Part shown: one piece after another, positions 3-27,062 of the stretch
How the letters are laid out: every line of letters begins with the position of its first letter
Position numbering within the stretch: the stretch's first letter is position 1
Source of the DNA: a virus
IMG/VR virus record: IMGVR_UViG_3300044858_003284
DNA length: 64,000 bases
Strand: one strand, 5' to 3'
The notes under the pieces: generated by a model
What the model was told of the DNA's origin: nothing
The model's database searches: none
The model's input: the letters and a program-made list of their open reading frames with translations, nothing else
Program-made: the position numbers and the translations under genes

Positions 3-485
3 ACTGATCCAATTTTAAGGCAAGTATTACCAGAATTCGATTTCAAGAATCCACCTGTAAATCCGGAAGAATTTGCTGAATCATTGGCTGAAACTTGTAG
101 GCTGCATCGTGGTATTGGTCTATCTGCCAATCAATGTGGATTTCCTTATCGTGTATTTGTAATGGGTGCTGATGATCAATATGTGGCATATTTTAATCCA
201 AAAATAACAGGACAATCCGAAGAGCAGGTACACATGGTAGAAGGGTGTTTATCTTTTCCATTTTTAGGATTGAGAATTACCAGGCCACAAGAAATTATGG
301 TTGAATACCAAAACTATCACGGTGAAATAAAACACGCAAAATTTAATGGCATATCTGCTCGTTGTTTTCAACATGAGCTTGACCACATGAACGGTATTGT
401 GTATACTAGTCTGACAAAGCCAATGGCTTTACAGTCTGGCATGAATAAAAGAAATAAAATTATGAGAAAGTTGAAACTCAAATAA
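3..485 (+). CDS. def: Peptide deformylase (5' truncated by window edge)
   Basis: Motifs GIGLSANQCG, EGCLS, QHELDH; frame open back to position 3. Confidence 0.95.
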   Translation, partial: TDPILRQVLPEFDFKNPPVNPEEFAESLAETCRLHRGIGLSANQCGFPYRVFVMGADDQYVAYFNPKITGQSEEQVHMVEGCLSFPFLGLRITRPQEIMVEYQNYHGEIKHAKFNGISARCFQHELDHMNGIVYTSLTKPMALQSGMNKRNKIMRKLKLK

Positions 486-1750
486 TGGCAAGAGTAGAAC
501 CTGTAGAAACACAATGGAAACGGTGGACAGAAGATAATCCACCAGATCGATGTCCACATATTGACGAAGAACAACTAATAAAAACTGTTACACAAGATTT
601 AGAATATGCTTCACAAATGGATGTTCGTGAATATACTTTATATCAAAAATGGTGTGAAGTAAAAGAACGGTATCCTGGTACCGCAAGAATGAATATGTTT
701 GGTGAACCAGACGTTGCTTGGAAAGATGATAAGCAAGCGGCAATCATCAATAAAGTCAAAAACAATATTTGGATTCCTAAAGATCCAGATGATTTTCAAA
801 ATTTAGAACCACAAATGTATTTGGCAAATACGAATCGTGTTGATGAATGGAATGCCATAAGAACATTTTCTTCTACAATGAAAAACAATTCTAATATTGG
901 CAGAAATCTATATTACATTGTTAAAGATAGAAAAACCGACAAGTATCTTGGTGTCATCTGTATCTCCTCAGACTTTCTGGATCTCACTCCTAGAGATAAA
1001 GCAATTGGTTGGGATCGAGATGTAAAAACTTCTCAGAACATGATTAATCATACGGCAATTGGTTCAACAATCGTGCCATTACAACCACTTGGTTTTAATT
1101 ATATGGGTGGTAAACTACTCGCATTACTGTGTCTATCAGATAAGGTTCAAAATGATTGGAAGGCAAAATATGGCGATGTGTTGGTAGGAGTCACAACTAC
1201 TTCATTGTATGGAAAAACAAAATCAGGAGGCCTTTCTCAATACGACGGACTTGAACATTGGAATGCCATGGGTTTCTCCTCAGGTTCTGTTGCCTTTGAA
1301 CCAACAAAACAAACCAAACAATTAATTTTTGATTGGATAAAAGAAAAACATCCTCGTAAATATTTTGAATGGTGGGAAGCAAAGAATCCACAAGGATTAC
1401 CACTCAAACGAGACCATAAAAATCGTTCATTACATTTTGCCTATCCAAAACTTGGTATCTCAAAAGACAAAACGAGAACAGAACACCAACGTGGTATCTA
1501 TTTTAGTTATCTCTACAATAACACTAGTGAATTCTTACGAAAAGAAATTACAGAAGATAAACTGGTAAAGGCTTTTGATACCAGTGAAGAAGCATTGACA
1601 AACATCTGGAAAACAAAGTATGCCAAAGGTCGTATTCGGCAACTACAAAAGAAAAATAATGTTTCATATGAAACACTTTTCTATGATGATTTGATTTATT
1701 TAACTTGGGAAGAAACCAAGGCAAAGTATTTGCCACAAGTTGGCAGATAA
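485..1750 (+). CDS. DUF4338/DruA-like protein, probable GNAT (Mom-like) fold; paralog 1
   Basis: VPLQPLGFNYMGGKLLALL and TTSLYG...SQYDG...WNAMGFSSG; clear paralog of 23136..24245. Confidence 0.7.
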   Translation: MARVEPVETQWKRWTEDNPPDRCPHIDEEQLIKTVTQDLEYASQMDVREYTLYQKWCEVKERYPGTARMNMFGEPDVAWKDDKQAAIINKVKNNIWIPKDPDDFQNLEPQMYLANTNRVDEWNAIRTFSSTMKNNSNIGRNLYYIVKDRKTDKYLGVICISSDFLDLTPRDKAIGWDRDVKTSQNMINHTAIGSTIVPLQPLGFNYMGGKLLALLCLSDKVQNDWKAKYGDVLVGVTTTSLYGKTKSGGLSQYDGLEHWNAMGFSSGSVAFEPTKQTKQLIFDWIKEKHPRKYFEWWEAKNPQGLPLKRDHKNRSLHFAYPKLGISKDKTRTEHQRGIYFSYLYNNTSEFLRKEITEDKLVKAFDTSEEALTNIWKTKYAKGRIRQLQKKNNVSYETLFYDDLIYLTWEETKAKYLPQVGR

Positions 1751-2184: not shown

Positions 2185-3003
2185 ATGGAAATTTCAATAA
2201 AAAAAGAGGACTTACAAAAGAAAAGTCTATTCGTGGCCACTCCAATGTATGGTGGCATGAATCATGGCTTATACATGAAAGCGTGTTTAGATTTACAAGG
2301 CATGTGTGTTCAGTATGGCATCAATATTAAATTTTCATTTCTTTTCAACGAATCATTAATCACACGTGCACGAAATTATTTGGTGGATGAATTCATTCAC
2401 CGTTCTGATTGCACACATATGTTGTTTATTGATTCCGACATTCATTTCAATCCACAAGATGTGATCGCCTTGTTGGCCATGGATAAAGATGTTTCTGGTG
2501 GTCCATATCCTAAGAAAGCAATTAAATGGAAATCCGTAAAGACTGCAATCACAAAAAATCCTGAAATCGATCCCTCTATTTTAGAAAAAGTTACTGGTGA
2601 TTACGTGTTTAATCCAGTGAAAGGCACAGCACAGTTTAATGTTACTGAACCACTAGAAGTTTTAGAAATTGGTACAGGCTTCATGATGATTAAACGTGAT
2701 GTGTTTAAGAGAATGGAAGAAGCATATCCAATGATTCGTTATAAACCTGACCATGTAGGACAGGCACACTTTGACGGTACTCGTTACATTCATGCTTTCT
2801 TTGATACAGTTATTGATACGAAAGATAGTATTGTAGGTGGTGGTTCTGATCGTTATCTATCAGAAGATTATATGTTCTGCCAGATGTGGCGTAAGATTGG
2901 TGGCAAGATTCACCTGTGTCCTTGGATGAGAACATCACATATTGGCACGTATCACTTCCAAGGAGATATGCCTGCCGTGGCTAATTTTGTTGGAGAAATG
3001 TAA
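2185..3003 (+). CDS. GT-A fold glycosyltransferase
   Basis: VATPMYGG, SLITRARN, FIDSDI (DxD), SEDYMFC. Confidence 0.8.
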   Translation: MEISIKKEDLQKKSLFVATPMYGGMNHGLYMKACLDLQGMCVQYGINIKFSFLFNESLITRARNYLVDEFIHRSDCTHMLFIDSDIHFNPQDVIALLAMDKDVSGGPYPKKAIKWKSVKTAITKNPEIDPSILEKVTGDYVFNPVKGTAQFNVTEPLEVLEIGTGFMMIKRDVFKRMEEAYPMIRYKPDHVGQAHFDGTRYIHAFFDTVIDTKDSIVGGGSDRYLSEDYMFCQMWRKIGGKIHLCPWMRTSHIGTYHFQGDMPAVANFVGEM

Positions 3004-3299
3004 TGTCAGAAGTAGGTCGTAAATTTGATGGTGGTAAATTAGAATATGGTTTATTACCACCATACGCATTAAAAGAAACAGTTAAAGTATTAACTTTTGG
3101 TGCTCAAAAATATGAACGAGATAACTGGCAAAAAGTGCCAGACTCTAAACGTAGATATTTTGATGCACTACAACGGCATCTATGGGCATGGAAAGAAGGA
3201 GAAGAAGTTGATCCTGAATCTGGTATACATCACTTGGCACACGCAATGTGCTGCTTGATGTTTCTGTATGAACATGATACAATATATTCGAAGCAGTAA
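3003..3299 (+). CDS. dATP/dGTP diphosphohydrolase-domain protein (DUF5664-like)
   Basis: GRKFDGGKLEYGLLP, GAQKYERDNW, DPESGIHHLAHA. Confidence 0.85.
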   Translation: MSEVGRKFDGGKLEYGLLPPYALKETVKVLTFGAQKYERDNWQKVPDSKRRYFDALQRHLWAWKEGEEVDPESGIHHLAHAMCCLMFLYEHDTIYSKQ

Positions 3300-7063: not shown

Positions 7064-7102
7064 ATAGGGGGTCTTGACAACCCCCTATTCTTGTGATACA
7101 AT
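7064..7102 (+). promoter_or_regulatory. Hairpin with -35 in the loop plus sigma70 promoter
   Basis: ATAGGGGGT/ACCCCCTAT around TTGACA(7074); 17 bp; TGnTACAAT. Confidence 0.75.
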
Positions 7103-7776: not shown

Positions 7777-7781
7777 AAACT

Positions 7782-8228
7782 ATGAAACAAAAATTTATTG
7801 ACGCTTATATGGATGTGGCAGAAAGATTTGCCAAACTATCATCCGCCAAACGATTACAAGTTGGTGCTATCATTGTCAAAAATGATAGAATCATATCTAT
7901 TGGTTACAATGGTATGCCTGCCGGATGGACCAATGAGTGTGAAGAAGTGGTAGAAATACATGAAGATGGCGGAGTTATCACCAAAACCAAGGACGAAGTG
8001 ATTCACGCAGAGGCCAATGCCATCGCCAAACTGGCTAAAGGCAGTGAATCTGGAGATGGTTCCACCATGTTCCTGACCCATGCTCCTTGTATTCATTGTG
8101 CCAAACAAGTCTATACCGCTGGTATTAAAAAAGTATATTACCGAAAATCTTATCGGGATACCATCGGCCTAGACTTCTTAAACAAATGTGGTGTTGAAGT
8201 AGAACAAATTTCACCTGGTGAAATCTAG
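7782..8228 (+). CDS. cd: dCMP deaminase
   Basis: GYNG, HAEANA, PCIHC. Confidence 0.93.
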   Translation: MKQKFIDAYMDVAERFAKLSSAKRLQVGAIIVKNDRIISIGYNGMPAGWTNECEEVVEIHEDGGVITKTKDEVIHAEANAIAKLAKGSESGDGSTMFLTHAPCIHCAKQVYTAGIKKVYYRKSYRDTIGLDFLNKCGVEVEQISPGEI

Positions 8229-8278: not shown

Positions 8279-8815
8279 ATGCAACTCAGTATCATCGGAT
8301 GTCCCGATAAGAAACGCTTTCGTCCTTACGTCAGGCGAGCGGCTATGTTTTATGCTGAACAATTAATGACACCAAAGATGTTGGAAAATATCTTTGTTCG
8401 GATTAAGTTTGACTCTAAAATAGACGCTTTAGGTTATGCAGACGTTATTAATTATAATGAAAGCAATAAACCTAGAGAATTTCAGATTGAATTAAATCCT
8501 ATAGCTGGTTCACATGACATATTGGAAACATTAGCTCATGAAATGGTTCATGTTAAACAGTATGCGTATGGTGAAACAAATGAATATGGCACTCGTTGGA
8601 GAGGCCAAAGAATTACCGAAAATATAGATTATTATGATGAACCATGGGAAATAGAGGCATATGGTGTGTCAATCGGTTTGTTTAGTAAATTTGCCATTAA
8701 AGAAAAGTTATGGGAAGTGTTTGCAGATATACGGAATCCGGATGCACCATTATTACCAGAGCCAATAGCATGGCGAAATATACCACAAATATCTATTGAC
8801 AATCAACCTATATAA
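8279..8815 (+). CDS. Zincin-like (HExxH) protein
   Basis: TLAHEMVHVKQ and PWEIEAY. Confidence 0.7.
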   Translation: MQLSIIGCPDKKRFRPYVRRAAMFYAEQLMTPKMLENIFVRIKFDSKIDALGYADVINYNESNKPREFQIELNPIAGSHDILETLAHEMVHVKQYAYGETNEYGTRWRGQRITENIDYYDEPWEIEAYGVSIGLFSKFAIKEKLWEVFADIRNPDAPLLPEPIAWRNIPQISIDNQPI

Positions 8816-8824
8816 TGTTACAAT
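8796..8824 (+). promoter_or_regulatory. sigma70 promoter directly upstream of atypical tRNA-Gly
   Basis: TTGACA(8796)-17 bp-TACAAT(8819), TGn extension. Confidence 0.75.
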
Positions 8825-8832
8825 CTTTATAT

Positions 8833-8902
8833 GCGGTCGGGGTATAGAACCAGAGTAGGTGTCCAATCTACTCACTTAGTGCGAATCTAAGCCACCGCTC
8901 CA
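8833..8902 (+). tRNA. Non-canonical tRNA-Gly(TCC)-like RNA
   Basis: Acceptor GCGGTCG/CCACCGC-T-CCA, mini D arm, 7-bp anticodon stem with TCC, T arm CTTAG-TGCGAAT-CTAAG. Confidence 0.8.
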
Positions 8903-9160: not shown

Positions 9161-9766
9161 TTAACTATTTTGAGAAGAAGGATTCATAAAGTTTTCAATT
9201 AATGTTGCAACGTCACCATATTGGTAATCTTCAAGCATTTCAATTACCATATCAACTATTTGAATTTGACGTATAAAGTTTTGCAATTCATTTTCATGAT
9301 TCTTTAATTGATTCTCAGCAAACATCTTTAGTAAATTTTCACCTTGATCATTTTTCTTTTTGATTTTTTTAATTATCTTTTTTAGTCGAAATATATAACC
9401 GTTACACGTATTGATATTATTGTTTATGTTTAGTTTTTCTCGCCTACTTTCATTTTTCATGATGAGTATTAGATCATCAAGATCAGGATTAATATTTGGA
9501 AGTAGATTGAAGAATAAACGGCTGAGTTGTTCTAGAGCTTGATCACGGAGACTTGTACCAGATTCATAATGACCCGTTGTATCATATTTTTTTCTATTGA
9601 CAGGATCACTTAAAACTTCATAGGCGTTTTTTATCTCCTTGAATAATTCAGGATCGCCGCCTTTATCTGGATGATGTTGTTGAGCAAGAGATTTGTATTT
9701 GGCTTTGATTTCTTCAAATGTTGCATTTTTAGAAACGCCTAAGATATCATATAAGTTTTTATTCAT
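9161..9766 (-). CDS. DnaJ-domain protein
   Basis: LYDILGV...HHPDKGG...AYEVLSD J-domain; C-terminal coiled coil. Confidence 0.9.
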   Translation of the reverse strand: MNKNLYDILGVSKNATFEEIKAKYKSLAQQHHPDKGGDPELFKEIKNAYEVLSDPVNRKKYDTTGHYESGTSLRDQALEQLSRLFFNLLPNINPDLDDLILIMKNESRREKLNINNNINTCNGYIFRLKKIIKKIKKKNDQGENLLKMFAENQLKNHENELQNFIRQIQIVDMVIEMLEDYQYGDVATLIENFMNPSSQNS

Positions 9767-9771
9767 AAATG

Positions 9772-9779
9772 TATTTATA
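9772..9779 (-). promoter_or_regulatory. T4 late promoter box
   Basis: TATAAATA on minus strand 5 nt before the DnaJ ATG. Confidence 0.55.
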
Positions 9780-10493
9780 ATGAGCTCCATACCAAAGATT
9801 GCACACGTTGCCTGGAAGACCAAAGATGTGGTGAATAGTCAATCACCACTCATTCTTAATGGATTACGTAAACTCATTGATCTGAATCCAGATTGGACGG
9901 TCACCGTATATGATGACAATGAAATTGATGAGTATCTTAGAAACACTTTAAACAAAAGAGATTACAATCTAATTAAAGATATACATATAGTTGAAAAGAG
10001 TGACCTGTGGAGATTATTTAAGTTATACAATGAAGGTGGTCTTTACATGGACATTGATCGTTTTTATAATGTGCCGTTATCAGAAATTGTAACTGATGGT
10101 ATAAAGTGTGTATTACCAACCTGTTTAGATTGGGATTTTTCACAAGACTTTATGTTAACTGAACCAAAAAATCCTATTCAAGCACAAACGATTGAACTGA
10201 TTTTAAAGAGGCGGTATGAAGGCCATAAGAATGTTTTCTTTTTAGGACCACAAACATACATGCACGCATTGACTATGGTAATATTTGGTGAAATGATTAA
10301 TACGAATCCTGGTGTTGAGAAATTTAATGAAATGCGAAAGTACCTAGAGCAAATATCTTTTATTAAAACTTACAGAGAAAGTCCACCAAACGATACGATA
10401 GTTTATAGAGGTGAAAAAATTATTGATTGGGAAAATATAAAAAGACAATTTTACGCTGAATCGAATATTAAACATTGGTCAGGAGAATGGTAA
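9780..10493 (+). CDS. Glycosyltransferase, DxD sugar-binding (GT32/OCH1-like)
   Basis: IPKIAHVAW, DLWRL..LYNEGGLYMDID. Confidence 0.85.
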   Translation: MSSIPKIAHVAWKTKDVVNSQSPLILNGLRKLIDLNPDWTVTVYDDNEIDEYLRNTLNKRDYNLIKDIHIVEKSDLWRLFKLYNEGGLYMDIDRFYNVPLSEIVTDGIKCVLPTCLDWDFSQDFMLTEPKNPIQAQTIELILKRRYEGHKNVFFLGPQTYMHALTMVIFGEMINTNPGVEKFNEMRKYLEQISFIKTYRESPPNDTIVYRGEKIIDWENIKRQFYAESNIKHWSGEW

Positions 10494-13591: not shown

Positions 13592-15670
13592 TTATTTTCC
13601 TAATTCGAATTGTGATTGAACCATTTGATTATGTAATTGATCGGTCGCACCAAATAATCTACGACCAGCTCTTGCATTATCTACATTCTTTTGGCCACCG
13701 TAAATGGTAAACGGTTTATAAAAAGAAACATCTTTAATAATAACACTATTATAAGCATCAAATGCAGGACTAAATCCCATTGCTGCAATAACTAAACCTT
13801 GTGTTGCAACTTGAGCATTCATTGATTTTGCTTCACCACTTTCTTTAACGGCTTCAGAACCTTTTGCAACCGCTTCTCTCTTTGCAGCTTCAACTCTGGC
13901 TTGTTGTAAAGTTTGTCGAGGTGACTGTGTTGTGGTAGAAGAACTAGAACTAGATGAACTTGTTGAAGAAGAACTGCTAGTTGAAGAAGAACTAGAACTA
14001 GATGAACTCTGTACCGATTCAACCACCAAAGCTGTCGTTGTTTGTTGTGAAGATGATGGTGATGTTAATTGCACTGGTGCCGCTGGCGCTGTCGGTGCAG
14101 TAGATGTTGATGTTGTTGTTACCACTCTATTAACATTCGGATCAGCCACAATCGCTGGAGTATTACTCACAGAACCAGAAGAAGATACAACTATCGCTTC
14201 TGTGGTTGTATTATTATTTGTTGTATTATTTGAATTTGCAACTGGTGCCACATAACCAGAGCAAGTGGGACTGGATTGTGGATTGGCTGTGCAAGCTTGA
14301 TTACGTAGATATGCTTGATAAGCAGTTTCGTAACCAGGACATTGTGGACTATACAAAGTATTCAAAGAACATTGTTGATTAAAATATGCTTGTTGATAAC
14401 CAGGACACTCACTATTATATAAAGGATTGGCCGTGCATTGTTGATTAAAATATGCTTGTTGATATCCTGGACATCCAGAATTATATAAAGGATTTGCGGT
14501 ACATTGTTGTGTAAAATAAGCCTGTTGATATCCTGGACAAGATGAGTTATATAATGGATCTTGTGTGCAACGAAAACTAAAATATGCTTGTTGATAACCA
14601 GGACATTGTGGACTATACAATGCACTTAATGAACATTGTTGATTAAAATATGCTTGTTGGTAACCAGGACAAGATGAGTTATATAATGGATCAGCGGTAC
14701 ATTGTTGATTAAAATATGCTTGTTGGTAACCAGGACAAGATGAGTTATATAATGGATCAGCGGTACATTGTTGATTAAAATATGCTTGTTGGTAACCAGG
14801 ACAAGATGAGTTATATAAAGAATTCGAATTACATTGTTGTGTAAAATAAGCTTCTTGATAACCAGGACATGATGAATCATATAAAGCATTAATACTGCAT
14901 TGTTGTGCAGTATAAGCAGCTGCGTAACCAGGACATGAAGGTGAATAAAGTGGATTGATTGTGCATTGATCAACTCCAGGTCCTGTTCCACCAAGTGCTT
15001 GCCAACTAAAAATACTAGAACTTCCTGGTGTAATATTTAATCCTTGGCCATGGTAATATTGATAATATTCACCTTTACTTAAATCGCCAGCTACACCAGA
15101 TGTTACGGCATTCCAAGATATCATAGCACCAGCAATACGAGTGTCTATAAGACCTGATGAATTAATTTTTATTTCAAAACTATTACCGCCTTGTGAACCA
15201 CAACATTGACTAACATTATACCAACCATATGTCATACTATTACCTTCACGAAGATAATATTGATTTTGATCATTCCATGAATATAAATCAGTATGTAATC
15301 CATAAATTGTATAATTATACGATGGATTTGTGGTGTTTCTTAAATCTACACCAGAACAACATCCACCACCTAAACCAGATGTTTGTGGATTTTGAAATGT
15401 TACAAATCCATTTGTTGCAGCCCAAGATGTTGTGAAGTTTTGGCCAAACATTGGAAATGTAAAACCTAAAGGAACTTCATTATACCAATCATCACCAGTT
15501 GTAATGTTTACTGCGTTTGGATTATTTTTAATATCTTGTAGTGGTAAAGCATTGACGCCTGTTCCAACTGTCATATTAAGACCTGGAGTTCCAGGTATTG
15601 GAATAGTAACTATTTGAGCGAAAGAGCAAGCAGACACCACAAAAAGTAGTGCTGCTAAAATCTTTTTCAT
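13592..15670 (-). CDS. Exported Cys-rich repeat protein (692 aa)
   Basis: Signal peptide, nidogen-like PLGFTFPMFGQNF..NG domain, 11 x 22-aa repeats, Ser/Thr linker. Confidence 0.85.
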   Translation of the reverse strand: MKKILAALLFVVSACSFAQIVTIPIPGTPGLNMTVGTGVNALPLQDIKNNPNAVNITTGDDWYNEVPLGFTFPMFGQNFTTSWAATNGFVTFQNPQTSGLGGGCCSGVDLRNTTNPSYNYTIYGLHTDLYSWNDQNQYYLREGNSMTYGWYNVSQCCGSQGGNSFEIKINSSGLIDTRIAGAMISWNAVTSGVAGDLSKGEYYQYYHGQGLNITPGSSSIFSWQALGGTGPGVDQCTINPLYSPSCPGYAAAYTAQQCSINALYDSSCPGYQEAYFTQQCNSNSLYNSSCPGYQQAYFNQQCTADPLYNSSCPGYQQAYFNQQCTADPLYNSSCPGYQQAYFNQQCSLSALYSPQCPGYQQAYFSFRCTQDPLYNSSCPGYQQAYFTQQCTANPLYNSGCPGYQQAYFNQQCTANPLYNSECPGYQQAYFNQQCSLNTLYSPQCPGYETAYQAYLRNQACTANPQSSPTCSGYVAPVANSNNTTNNNTTTEAIVVSSSGSVSNTPAIVADPNVNRVVTTTSTSTAPTAPAAPVQLTSPSSSQQTTTALVVESVQSSSSSSSSSTSSSSSTSSSSSSSSTTTQSPRQTLQQARVEAAKREAVAKGSEAVKESGEAKSMNAQVATQGLVIAAMGFSPAFDAYNSVIIKDVSFYKPFTIYGGQKNVDNARAGRRLFGATDQLHNQMVQSQFELGK
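14252..14965 (-). repeat. Tandem 66-bp coding repeat, about 11 units (CxxxPLYxxxCPGYQQAYFNQQ)
   Basis: Units 14633-14698 and 14699-14764 are identical. Confidence 0.95.
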
Positions 15671-21791: not shown

Positions 21792-23139
21792 AGATTATTT
21801 ACGAAAAGTATTACCATTTCTAAAGACTGAATATTTTTCTGATAGTGTTGAAAGAACCTTATTCAATGAAATCACATCATTCACAGAAACTTACAATAGT
21901 TCACCATCTATTGAAGCGCTCAGTATTGCCGTCAAAGAAAAAAGAAATCTCACAGCTGACGAGGTGCAGAGAGCAGAAGATTATCTGGAAGAAATTACAA
22001 AGCATAAAGAAGAAACTTCCGAGATACAATGGCTTGTTGATAAATCGGAAAAGTTCTGCCAAGAAAAAGCCATTTATAACGCTGTATTGGGGAGTATCTC
22101 CATTCTGGACGGGAAAGATAGAAATCACGACAAAGGACAAATTCCCAAGATTTTGTCCGATGCTCTTGCAGTAAGTTTTGATAACTCAGTAGGTCACGAT
22201 TATTTACAGGACTCAGATGCTCGATATGAATTCTATCACAGAAAAGAGGAAAGAATACCTTTTGACTTGGACTACTTTAACAAAATCACAAAAGGTGGTT
22301 TACCTGCTAAGACACTCAATGTCGCTCTTGCTGGCACTGGTGTTGGCAAATCTCTTTTTATGTGTCATGTGGCTGCTGGCTGTATGGTTCAAGGCAAGAA
22401 TGTTCTTTACATCACTTTGGAAATGAGTGAAGAAAAGATTGCAGAACGAATCGATGCTAATCTATTGAATGTAACAATTGATGATTTGATGGACTTGCCA
22501 AAGGATATGTATGATAAGAAAGTGGCGAGAGTTCGTGAAAAGACTACAGGCAAATTAATCATCAAAGAATATCCAACGGCATCCGCATCAACTATTCATT
22601 TTCGGACACTATTGAATGAACTTAATCTCAAAAGGTCTTTTGTACCTGACATTATATTTGTTGACTATCTTAATATTTGTTGTAGTGCTCGTATTAAAGC
22701 TGGTGCGAATATTAATTCCTACACCTACGTTAAAGCAATTGCAGAAGAATTACGTGGCCTTGCTGTTGAGTTTAATGTTCCTATTGTATCTGCTACACAG
22801 ACTACCCGTTCAGGATTTACATCAAGTGATCCAGGACTTGAAGATACGTCTGAATCATTCGGACTTCCCGCCACCGCAGACTTGATGTTTGCTTTGATTT
22901 CTTCAGAAGAACTAGAAGAACTTGGTCAAATCATGGTCAAACAATTGAAGAATCGATATAATGATCCAACATACCACAAACGATTCACTCTTGGTGTTGA
23001 CCGTGCCAAAATGAAACTGTATGATGTTGAACAGGCCGCACAAATGGGTATTGCAGATGCTGGCCATGATAAACCTTTAAACACATTTGGTACAAGAGAA
23101 GAACGACCAAAGAAATCATTTAGTGGATTCAAAGTATGA
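21748..23139 (+). CDS. gp41: Replicative DNA helicase
   Basis: AGTGVGKS, LEMSEE, VDYLNI, SATQ, KQLKNRY. Confidence 0.96.
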   Translation: MKLEQTILKNLIYNEDYLRKVLPFLKTEYFSDSVERTLFNEITSFTETYNSSPSIEALSIAVKEKRNLTADEVQRAEDYLEEITKHKEETSEIQWLVDKSEKFCQEKAIYNAVLGSISILDGKDRNHDKGQIPKILSDALAVSFDNSVGHDYLQDSDARYEFYHRKEERIPFDLDYFNKITKGGLPAKTLNVALAGTGVGKSLFMCHVAAGCMVQGKNVLYITLEMSEEKIAERIDANLLNVTIDDLMDLPKDMYDKKVARVREKTTGKLIIKEYPTASASTIHFRTLLNELNLKRSFVPDIIFVDYLNICCSARIKAGANINSYTYVKAIAEELRGLAVEFNVPIVSATQTTRSGFTSSDPGLEDTSESFGLPATADLMFALISSEELEELGQIMVKQLKNRYNDPTYHKRFTLGVDRAKMKLYDVEQAAQMGIADAGHDKPLNTFGTREERPKKSFSGFKV

Positions 23140-24245
23140 TATTGACTAGAGACCAAGCACTTCATTGTGCTGGTGTATTTAAAGACTACTTCAGTAATCT
23201 AGGAAGTACCGAAGAATACATGCGTGATGAGAAACTAAAAGATATTGATAATCGACCATTTTCATTGTTTCCAATTGAAGATGATTTGTTCTCCGATTTC
23301 TCAATGCACCCAAACGATATGGATATTGAAGTATGTGAAATACCAAATGAAACATGGGAATCATTACTTGCCATTACCTCATCTCACATCAACAAAGCAC
23401 CAGTTGGTAAGAATATACAATTGGCAGTCAGAGAACGGAACTCAGGAAAGATTCTAGGTTTCATTCGTTTAGGTTCACCAGTGATCTATATGAAACCAAG
23501 AAATGAACTCTTGGGGCAAGTTTGGATTCAAAACGAGAACACCGCCAAGCGGTTTAATACTGCTTGTGTGATGGGTTTCGTAATTGTACCATCTCAACCA
23601 TTTGGTTTTAACTATTTGGGTGGTAAGTTATTATCTGCCATTTGTACCAGTCATACCGTAAGAGAAATGTGTAATAAAAAATATGACATGAATGTGTGCC
23701 TATTTGAAACTACCAGTTTGTATGGTAGCACAAAAACGGTATCACAATATGATGGCATGAAACCATATATTCGTTTTAGGGGATTGACCGAATCGGATAT
23801 CGTACCTATGATGCACGGACAAAGATATCAAGATTTGAAAAACTATGTCGAGAATATCACTGGTGATTTACTCGGTGGTGACACATCTACAACCAGTAGA
23901 AAGTTGAGAACATTTACCAAGATTATTGCTCTCACAAAAGCTGCATTGAAAGGTAGTTCCGAAGGTAAAGAGTTTGTAGAGACCATCGATAATGCCAAGA
24001 AATTAACAGAGAAGAAAAGATACTATACATCCGATTATGGTTTTAAAAATTCAATCGATTACATGAATTGTAAGACCGATAAACTTTTACCAGGTGAAAA
24101 TTACGAGAAACATGAACTACAAAATGTGATTGAATGGTGGCGTGGAAAAGCTATAAATAGATATGAAACCCTTAAAGCTGAGGGTAGATTACGAACAGAA
24201 CTTGAAGTATGGACTTCAGGAAAAGACATTCAAATTATTAGATAA
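23136..24245 (+). CDS. DUF4338/DruA-like protein, probable GNAT (Mom-like) fold; paralog 2
   Basis: VPSQPFGFNYLGGKLLSAIC, ETTSLYG...SQYDG...GLTES; coupled to gp41. Confidence 0.7.
   Translation: MILTRDQALHCAGVFKDYFSNLGSTEEYMRDEKLKDIDNRPFSLFPIEDDLFSDFSMHPNDMDIEVCEIPNETWESLLAITSSHINKAPVGKNIQLAVRERNSGKILGFIRLGSPVIYMKPRNELLGQVWIQNENTAKRFNTACVMGFVIVPSQPFGFNYLGGKLLSAICTSHTVREMCNKKYDMNVCLFETTSLYGSTKTVSQYDGMKPYIRFRGLTESDIVPMMHGQRYQDLKNYVENITGDLLGGDTSTTSRKLRTFTKIIALTKAALKGSSEGKEFVETIDNAKKLTEKKRYYTSDYGFKNSIDYMNCKTDKLLPGENYEKHELQNVIEWWRGKAINRYETLKAEGRLRTELEVWTSGKDIQIIR
24152..24159 (+). promoter_or_regulatory. T4 late promoter box
   Basis: TATAAATA about 90 nt upstream of 24248. Confidence 0.5.
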
Positions 24246-26348: not shown

Positions 26349-27062
26349 ATGTCTGCTACTGTGATTATACCAACTACTGGTTCGCCAGAAGTGAAAACTG
26401 CCGTTGAATCTGTCCTAAATCAAAGTCATCCTACAGAGTGTTATGTTGTGATTGATGGTGATGGATATATGGACAAAACCCTTGAAGTATTGGATTCAAC
26501 TGTTCATGATGAACGAGTTCACATTTGTTCTTTACCAATCAATGTCGGTGCCAATGGTTTTTATGGCCACCGTGTCTATGCAGCCTTCACGCACCTAATC
26601 AATACAGAATACGTTGGTTATCTCGACCAAGATAATTGGTTATATCGGTCTCATGTCGAACAATGTATTAAGACAATCAATACAAGAGGCCTGGATTGGT
26701 GTTACTCTCTCCGTCAAGTATATAATAAAGAAGGTAAGTTTGTTTGTTTTGACGATTGTGAATCACTTGGCATCTGGCCAACTTATCACGGAGTTCATCA
26801 CATAGATACTAATTGTTACTTCATCAAAACACAAGTAGCAAACAAGATTGCATCTGTTTGGCATGGTGGTTGGGGACAAGATCGAGTTTTTCTACAGGCT
26901 ATCACTCATCATTTTCCTAAGTTTCACTGCACAAGTGAATACACAACCTGTTATCGAGTAGATGGTGGTAAAGGTTCTGTAACAGCAGAATTCTTTGAAA
27001 ATGGTAATAAAGTAATGAATGAAAAATATAATGGAGAATACCCATGGCGGAAAAAAGCTTAG
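26349..27062 (+). CDS. Glycosyltransferase family 2
   Basis: VIIPTTG, VESVLNQ, YLDQDN. Confidence 0.88.
   Translation: MSATVIIPTTGSPEVKTAVESVLNQSHPTECYVVIDGDGYMDKTLEVLDSTVHDERVHICSLPINVGANGFYGHRVYAAFTHLINTEYVGYLDQDNWLYRSHVEQCIKTINTRGLDWCYSLRQVYNKEGKFVCFDDCESLGIWPTYHGVHHIDTNCYFIKTQVANKIASVWHGGWGQDRVFLQAITHHFPKFHCTSEYTTCYRVDGGKGSVTAEFFENGNKVMNEKYNGEYPWRKKA

What the first reader, a model, noticed from the sequence alone, without database searches (positions are those of the whole stretch)
8796..8902. Non-canonical tRNA-Gly with hallmarks of a non-proteinogenic glycyl donor
Seen: a 70-nt cloverleaf behind its own TTGACA-17-TACAAT promoter. It keeps the glycine identity set (G1-C72, C2-G71, G3-C70, U73, anticodon TCC at 8862-8864, encoded CCA). 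It lacks U8 and the D-loop GG (D arm is only GGT-ATAGA-ACC), has G instead of U33, a 7-bp anticodon stem with a 1-nt variable region, an A/U-rich T stem, and GTGC instead of GTTC. Established: staphylococcal cell-wall tRNA-Gly species, which are charged but kept out of translation, also lose the D-loop GG, carry GUGC and bind EF-Tu weakly. Inference: all stems are intact apart from one C-C mismatch and all identity elements survive, which argues against random decay. The RNA looks built to be charged by host GlyRS and delivered to a phage enzyme instead of the ribosome.
Basis: partly seen in the sequence, partly recalled or inferred. Interest (0 to 1): 0.9.

Follow-up and report, generated by a model that had tools for sequence, protein, structure and literature searches.

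The report
Phage's private glycine tRNA for acyltransferase
This T4-like freshwater phage carries a real, conserved but deformed glycine tRNA that standard finders miss; it keeps the signals for being loaded with glycine, has lost those for protein synthesis, and travels with a Mom-fold enzyme, so it is probably a private glycine carrier, most likely for chemically disguising the phage's DNA.

Summary
Observation confirmed: a 70-nt tRNA-Gly(UCC)-like gene (8833-8902) behind its own sigma-70 promoter, missed by ARAGORN and Rfam. About 55 IMG/VR homologues keep the cloverleaf by compensatory changes while the flanks diverge. GlyRS identity elements are fixed. U8, D-loop GG, U33, U55 and the G51-C63 EF-Tu pair are lost. 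Anticodon position 34 varies (U/C/A) across relatives, and several carry a normal tRNA-Gly beside it. I found the probable partner. GUGC-type tRNA-Gly lie within 300 nt of Mom or DUF4338/DruA-like genes in 51/85 viral loci, against 3/113 for matched GUUC tRNA-Gly. Mu Mom is a published Gly-tRNA-dependent DNA modifier. The window encodes two DUF4338 paralogs. The one at 485-1750 folds as a GNAT (nearest: Mom), and the odd RNA tracks it (18/26 vs 0/16 loci; cultured HTVC008M and Mosig carry an unannotated version). Weak links: DUF4338 has no sequence link to Mom; expression, charging and the acceptor are untested. Known pieces: staphylococcal non-proteinogenic tRNA-Gly, and a tRNA-Gly-like locus inside Dehalococcoides mom (2011, no function given). 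This scan noted the same class on other genomes before. New variant of a known kind.

The parts
8796..8824 (+). Sigma-70-type promoter (TTGACA-17-TACAAT, extended -10) overlapping the last codons of the SprT-like ORF; expected start only a few nt before the RNA
   Evidence: 11/12 match; TTGAY upstream in 33/38 homologous loci; not tested for activity
8833..8902 (+). Non-canonical tRNA-Gly(UCC), 70 nt, encoded CCA
   Evidence: missed by ARAGORN/Rfam
8860..8866 (+). Anticodon loop with G33 and TCC (8862-8864); C35/C36 fixed across the class, N34 = U, C or A in relatives
8875..8891 (+). T arm with U51-A63 (invariant in 22/22) and G55 in place of U55
485..1750 (+). DUF4338/DruA-like paralog A (421 aa), GNAT fold; proposed partner enzyme. 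Its orthologues lie 16-132 nt upstream of the odd tRNA in other T4-like phages
   Evidence: Pfam PF14236 E 3e-20; AF2 pLDDT 94; VIA top hit Mu Mom 8BV8 Z 9.6, rmsd 4.0, 172 aligned, tied with other GNATs; adjacency; co-occurrence
23136..24245 (+). DUF4338/DruA-like paralog B (369 aa, 26% identical to A); its S-SCSM2R homologue is annotated 'methylcarbamoylase mom' on predicted structure; less tightly tied to the odd tRNA
8279..8815 (+). SprT-like HExxH ORF that marks the genomic slot of the RNA in the close clade (positional neighbour only)

Best explanation
The RNA is a phage-encoded, non-translational tRNA-Gly. It is transcribed from its own host-type promoter, needs no CCA addition, and is glycylated by host GlyRS (acceptor pairs 1-3, U73, C35, C36). 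Its broken elbow, G33 and U51-A63 pair keep EF-Tu and the ribosome from taking it, so Gly-tRNA stays available to a phage GNAT, most likely DUF4338 paralog A (485-1750). By analogy with Mu Mom, that enzyme transfers glycine to a DNA base to make the genome restriction-resistant. Shown: sequence, conservation, covariation, class-level linkage to Mom/DUF4338 genes, GNAT fold. Inferred: expression, charging, EF-Tu escape, use by paralog A, DNA as acceptor.
For: Covariation and fixed identity set; RNA 94% identical vs 43% in ungapped flanks. Identity elements match PMC9976931. The same slot holds a UCC or a CCC odd allele in 13 vs 12 loci, ACC in others, although GGG is only 13 of 1008 Gly codons here. 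Canonical tRNA-Gly(UCC) sits next to the odd one in L001, L279, L223, L242, L295. Pair 51-63 is A-U/U-A in 29/41 GUGC RNAs vs 7/102 canonical; staphylococcal NP tRNAs have A51-U63 (PMC7826273). RNA-only pattern, one base changed as control: Mom or DUF4338 within 300 nt in 51/85 vs 3/113 (68, 106); Pfam Mom in whole records 22/49 vs 1/49 (78, 79); the 44 linked Mom proteins form 20 clusters at 50% identity. Mom uses Gly-tRNA-Gly to modify adenine (PMC13219725). Paralog A is a GNAT with Mom as top structural hit. Odd RNA in 18/26 loci with A, 0/16 without; present in complete G007, HTVC008M and Mosig (all have A), absent from B-only S-SM2, S-CAM9, S-T4 scanned whole. No FemAB, Acetyltransf_6 or LPG-synthase gene in five A-bearing records.
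Against: DUF4338 is not a Mom-family member by sequence: no PF25680 hit, hhalign probability 0.7%, Foldseek E 0.047, and the VIA Z is within 1 of ordinary acetyl-CoA GNATs. In this window the RNA is 7 kb from paralog A. The A/RNA table is confounded by relatedness, and loci are 14-21 kb fragments. Some odd RNAs in marine phages lie near paralog B instead. Mom does not need a private tRNA: all three E. coli isoacceptors work (PMC13219725), and Melnitz has Mom without one. Charging of such a shrunken RNA is not guaranteed (T. thermophilus GlyRS also reads G10, U16, C50-G64). The rest of this genome was not available.
Confidence: 0.57

Rival explanations
1. Same private Gly-tRNA and same DUF4338 GNAT, but the acceptor is not DNA: a protein, an RNA, or a cell-surface or virion glycan or lipid (the window holds many glycosyltransferase-like genes).
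For: GNAT fold does not specify the acceptor (PMC13219725 says so); FemA and many small-molecule GNATs score within about 1.5 Z of Mom; no sequence link to Mom; GT genes at 2185-3003, 9780-10493, 26349-27062.
Against: Both paralogs sit among replication genes (gp46/gp45 region; next to gp41, gp43 or gp62 in relatives); the same RNA class serves true Mom genes; Mom is the best structural match with the longest alignment among the top hits.
Confidence: 0.2
2. A decoy or counter-defence RNA: it mimics tRNA-Gly to soak up a host tRNA-targeting toxin or nuclease, or to occupy GlyRS, without handing glycine on.
For: Remodelled anticodon loop (G33, free N34) could dodge or bait anticodon nucleases (own knowledge, untested); strong own promoter.
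Against: Does not explain embedding in or adjacency to Mom/DUF4338 genes in many unrelated phages, nor the systematic weak 51-63 pair (106).
Confidence: 0.1
3. An unusual but working translational tRNA-Gly that supplies GGA/GGN decoding, like shrunken mitochondrial tRNAs.
For: Intact cloverleaf, 7-nt loop, A37, CCA; no canonical tRNA-Gly in this window; GGA is 19% of Gly codons.
Against: U8, D-loop GG and U33 are present in 94, 99 and 100 of 103 canonical phage tRNA-Gly and all absent here; relatives keep a canonical copy beside it; CCC allele would read the rarest codon.
Confidence: 0.07
4. A decayed tRNA pseudogene or integration-site remnant.
For: Missed by tRNA finders; C.C mismatch.
Against: Compensatory changes, invariant 'defects' and promoter retention across dozens of genomes; lytic T4-like genome; no exact-family match in bacterial genomes.
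Confidence: 0.02

Closest known systems
Staphylococcal non-proteinogenic tRNA-Gly(UCC) NP1-NP3 (donors for FmhB/FemA/FemB; PMC7826273, PMC13443448, PMC4574755)
   Same: Gly identity kept; no G18-G19, no U55; A/U pair at 51-63; short D stem (as NP3); co-exists with translational tRNA-Gly
   Different: Phage-encoded; 70 nt with no U8, G33, 7-bp anticodon stem and 1-nt variable region; N34 free across the class; no Fem enzyme in related genomes; that lineage is described as staphylococcus-only, so this is convergence
Phage Mu Mom, Gly-tRNA-dependent adenine hypermodification to 6-NcmdA (PMC13219725; PDB 8BV8)
   Same: GNAT fold of the window's paralog A; the same RNA class sits inside or next to true Mom genes
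   Different: Mu uses host tRNA-Gly, no private tRNA reported; the window enzymes are DUF4338 (369-421 aa), not PF25680, with no profile similarity to Mom
76-bp tRNA-Gly-like 'pseudo-tRNA' embedded in the mom homologue of Dehalococcoides ssrA islands (PMC3146451)
   Same: tRNA-Gly-like, N34-variable ('DCC') locus physically tied to mom
   Different: Embedded in a true mom gene of a genomic island, no function proposed; here free-standing, shorter, with own promoter, in a lytic T4-like phage with DUF4338
Druantia DruA (PF14236) and DruA-like proteins of cyanophages (bioRxiv 10.1101/2025.08.05.668817; PMC12801897)
   Same: Family of the two window enzymes; S-SCSM2R homologue already called Mom-like on predicted structure
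   Different: No tRNA partner, donor or activity reported in the papers read

Membership tests
Bacterial tRNA-Gly (GlyRS substrate) | G1-C72, C2-G71, G3-C70, U73, C35, C36, CCA | tested here: met
   set from PMC9976931
Bacterial tRNA-Gly (GlyRS substrate) | Actually glycylated | not testable with these tools
   needs an aminoacylation assay
Canonical translational tRNA | U8, G18-G19, U33, T54-U55-C56 | tested here: not met
   all four absent; 91-97% present in 103 canonical phage tRNA-Gly for the first three; no ARAGORN/Rfam call
Non-proteinogenic tRNA-Gly (works like) | Loss of G18-G19 and U55 | tested here: met
   vs PMC13443448
Non-proteinogenic tRNA-Gly (works like) | Weak T-stem pairs for EF-Tu (A/U at 51-63 instead of G51-C63) | tested here: met
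   U51-A63 in 22/22; class 29/41 vs 7/102 (106); PMC7826273. Sequence feature only
Non-proteinogenic tRNA-Gly (works like) | Measured low EF-Tu affinity and exclusion from translation | not testable with these tools
   needs binding and translation assays
Staphylococcal NP1-NP3 family (membership) | Staphylococcal gene serving Fem transferases in peptidoglycan synthesis | tested here: not met
   phage gene; no FemAB/Acetyltransf_6 in five related records; no exact-family match in bacterial genomes
Mom family PF25680 (for ORFs 485-1750 and 23136-24245) | Pfam Mom match or profile homology | tested here: not met
Mom family PF25680 (for ORF 485-1750) | Mom-type GNAT fold | tested here: inconclusive
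   GNAT fold clear; 8BV8 ranks first (Z 9.6, rmsd 4.0, 172 aligned) but is tied with other GNATs; Foldseek prob 0.97, E 0.047 (75)
Mom family PF25680 (for ORF 485-1750) | Gly-tRNA-dependent DNA adenine modification | not testable with these tools
   needs LC-MS of DNA
DUF4338/DruA PF14236 | Pfam match above cut-off | tested here: met
   72.9 and 33 bits vs cut-off 27; Atlas 0.98 (118)
Druantia defence system | Operon with the large DruE helicase | tested here: inconclusive
   no ORF above 844 aa in the window and no such neighbour; rest of genome not held

The most novel reading that the evidence does not exclude
DUF4338/DruA proteins are a second, sequence-unrelated family of Gly-tRNA-dependent DNA hypermodifiers, and T4-like aquatic phages (including cultured SAR11 phages HTVC008M and Mosig) supply them with a private, ribosome-proof tRNA-Gly, converging on the same solution as many Mom-carrying phages and as staphylococcal cell-wall synthesis. 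This would also give a first biochemical lead for Druantia DruA.
Probability: 0.45. Interest if true: 0.85.

Novelty: new variant of a known kind. Interest (0 to 1): 0.72.

Why it matters
Dedicated non-ribosomal tRNAs are established for cell-wall synthesis; a viral tRNA reserved for an acyltransferase, probably for DNA disguise, was not found in the papers searched. The class is invisible to standard annotation, so phage tRNA inventories undercount it. It offers a donor prediction for a large uncharacterised family (3,608 DUF4338 homologues at E<=0.001), names two cultured phages in which the prediction can be tested now, and gives natural minimal tRNA scaffolds (65-70 nt) that appear to be charged yet orthogonal to EF-Tu.

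Tried and rejected
Whole genome not held. blastn of the RNA or of two marine variants against cultured phages gave only chance or canonical hits; CMs and a structural descriptor were needed. MAFFT misaligned variants of different length, so covariation was counted on the gap-free alignment A2 and the CM-fitted A5 (which leans to its structure). R1 and R2 both missed the D-armless RNA of G007, which first looked like a counter-example and was then found by hand; CM absences are therefore weak, and only the descriptor scans of S-SM2, S-CAM9, S-T4 and Melnitz cover whole genomes. phmmer vs PDB and hhalign gave no sequence link between DUF4338 and Mom. The SprT-like neighbour as partner was rejected: the RNA sits beside DUF4338-A, gp45 or Mom elsewhere. 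Fem/MprF-type partners not found. Literature searches found no report of a phage tRNA serving Mom or DUF4338; subscription papers are mostly not covered. Complex prediction was not used (no RNA partner possible).

Full report
Observation. A TTGACA-17-TACAAT site with an extended -10 (8796-8824; 11/12) precedes a 70-nt cloverleaf at 8833-8902 (MFE -24.9 kcal/mol, z -3.06). It has G1-C72, C2-G71, G3-C70, U73, CCA and anticodon TCC, and lacks U8, the D-loop GG, U33 and U55. ARAGORN and Rfam find three other tRNAs in the window (Met, Thr, Met) but not this one.

Context. The window is a T4-like phage replication region (gp45, gp44, gp62, RegA, gp43, UvsX, gp41), closest in gp44 to Methylophilales, cyano- and pelagiphages among cultured records and much closer to uncultured freshwater contigs. 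No whole genome is held.

It is a conserved gene. Pattern scans gave about 55 IMG/VR copies. On 22 distinct sequences 95% of cells pair, five pairs change on both sides, and 32 cells show such changes against 9.5 in shuffles; slid structures pair 27-45%. The RNA is 94% identical across 38 loci and the ungapped flanks 43%; a -35 box recurs in 33/38. The C6.C67 mismatch is unpaired in all 22, so it is a feature, not decay. No exact-family match was found in bacterial genomes.

Selected for charging, not decoding. The fixed positions are the published GlyRS set (PMC9976931). In close relatives the same slot holds a UCC form (13 loci) or a different odd CCC form (12 loci); ACC forms also occur. 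GGG makes up 13 of 1008 Gly codons in this window, so a CCC allele is a poor codon supply. Several relatives keep a canonical tRNA-Gly(UCC) right beside the odd one. Pair 51-63, G-C in tight EF-Tu binders and A-U in staphylococcal non-proteinogenic tRNAs (PMC7826273), is U-A here in 22/22 and A/U in 29/41 of the wider class against 7/102 canonical phage tRNA-Gly. The staphylococcal species also lack G18-G19 and U55 (PMC13443448).

The partner. Mu Mom transfers glycine from Gly-tRNA-Gly to adenine in DNA (PMC13219725). An RNA-only pattern (anticodon, GTGC loop, acceptor end) returned a broad class of 60-77-nt tRNA-Gly-like RNAs. Many overlap or abut genes that are bona fide Mom (PF25680 E 1e-43 to 1e-51; phrog_1384; E 2e-28 to Mu Mom 8BV8). 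The same pattern with GTTC served as control. Mom or a DUF4338 gene lay within 300 nt of 51/85 GTGC RNAs and 3/113 GTTC RNAs (Fisher p 1e-20, not corrected for kinship; the local Mom HMM came from eight GTGC loci, and overlap counts use stop-to-stop frames). With the independent Pfam model on whole records it was 22/49 against 1/49, although I had thinned Mom-positive loci from the test set and chosen the longest control contigs. The 44 linked Mom proteins fall into 20 clusters at 50% identity, so this is not one clone.

This window has no PF25680 gene but two DUF4338/DruA-like paralogs, A (485-1750) and B (23136-24245). In other T4-like contigs the short RNA, often as a CCC+UCC tandem, starts 16-132 nt after an orthologue of A. 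A folds with pLDDT 94 into a GNAT; Mom 8BV8 ranks first (Z 9.6, rmsd 4.0, 172 aligned) but within 1 Z of other GNATs, Foldseek E 0.047, and hhalign finds no profile similarity to Mom. So A works like a Mom-fold enzyme at best and is not a Mom family member. The S-SCSM2R homologue of B was called Mom-like by its authors on predicted structure only.

Which paralog. Among loci of 14 kb or more picked by gp44 or RegA alone, 18/26 with A carry an odd tRNA-Gly and 0/16 without A do; relatedness and fragment length confound this. Complete A-bearing genomes all have one: G007 (D-armless UCC), HTVC008M (ACC, record 91140-91213, unannotated) and Mosig (ACC, 7779-7852). B-only S-SM2, S-CAM9 and S-T4, scanned whole, have only canonical tRNA-Gly, and Melnitz has Mom with no odd RNA. 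A few marine odd RNAs lie near B, so the assignment to A is likely, not certain. Fem- and MprF-type genes were absent from five A-bearing records.

Mechanism. Most likely (0.57): host polymerase transcribes the RNA, host GlyRS charges it, EF-Tu largely ignores it, and paralog A moves the glycine onto a DNA base for restriction evasion. The advantage would be the one shown for staphylococcal FmhB, which EF-Tu inhibits by sequestering normal Gly-tRNA. Rivals: another acceptor (0.2), decoy (0.1), translation (0.07), pseudogene (0.02). Expression could not be examined.

What is known. Non-proteinogenic tRNA-Gly are known from staphylococci. A 76-bp tRNA-Gly-like locus inside a mom homologue was described in Dehalococcoides islands in 2011 without a function (PMC3146451). 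The Mom paper mined over 8,000 homologue contigs and its main text mentions no phage-encoded tRNA. I found no paper linking a phage tRNA to Mom or DUF4338. I had reached the Mom link before consulting earlier notes; those notes show this scan reported the same class on several other genomes and led me to the 2011 paper and to the paralog test. They are leads, not support.

Verdict. Real, conserved, a new variant of a known kind; interest 0.72. The RNA is secure, the class-level tie to Mom is strong, and the open step is what DUF4338 does with the glycine.

Noticed in passing
L425:2500-2567, L433:15384-15451, L242:17424-17490, L295:13291-13357: A second odd tRNA-Gly allele (67-68 nt, anticodon CCC, non-standard T arm) occupies the same slot in about half of the close relatives; tandem CCC+UCC pairs follow the DUF4338-A gene in L138, L172, L176, L179, L201.
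   Followed up: partly
L418:5161-5226 (G007), L568, L617, L627, L571: 65-66-nt tRNA-Gly(UCC) with no D stem, mostly A3-U70, and a T loop unlike GTTC/GTGC; missed by both of my covariance models.
   Followed up: partly
L437:21141-21214 (HTVC008M) and L541:7779-7852 (Mosig): Unannotated tRNA-Gly-like genes with anticodon ACC in two cultured SAR11 phages; in HTVC008M it lies just before the phage S21 ribosomal-protein gene.
   Followed up: yes
L120, L124, L125, L128, L131, L134, L177, L215 and others: The tRNA-Gly-like gene is encoded within the last ~30 codons of the Mom ORF, usually followed by a terminase-small-subunit-like gene; L184 and L137 have two Mom+RNA units.
   Followed up: partly
L347, L365 (control set): tRNA-Gly(UCC) with GTTC but G33 and no D-loop GG, about 1.1 kb from a paralog-B gene: possible intermediates.
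   Followed up: no
window 2185-3299: Glycosyltransferase-like ORF and dATP/dGTP diphosphohydrolase-N ORF (PF18909) just downstream of paralog A; a hint at further nucleotide or DNA modification.
   Followed up: no
window 7074-7102 and 10042-10070: Two further 11/12 sigma-70 promoters; 7074 has the same TTGACA-17-TACAAT form.
   Followed up: no
window 9161-9823 and 9828-9849: DnaJ-domain-like ORF on the minus strand, with a hairpin that scores as a terminator on both strands.
   Followed up: no
window 13592-15670: 692-aa minus-strand ORF with many Cys-rich repeats (C-x7-N-x-x-CPGYQQAYF type) and a Ser-rich tail.
   Followed up: no
L483, L484 and S-SM2, S-T4, DSL-LC02, S-SCSM2R records: A conserved G-rich element ending in GCGCTCCA recurs in cyanophages with and without DUF4338; identity not checked.
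   Followed up: no
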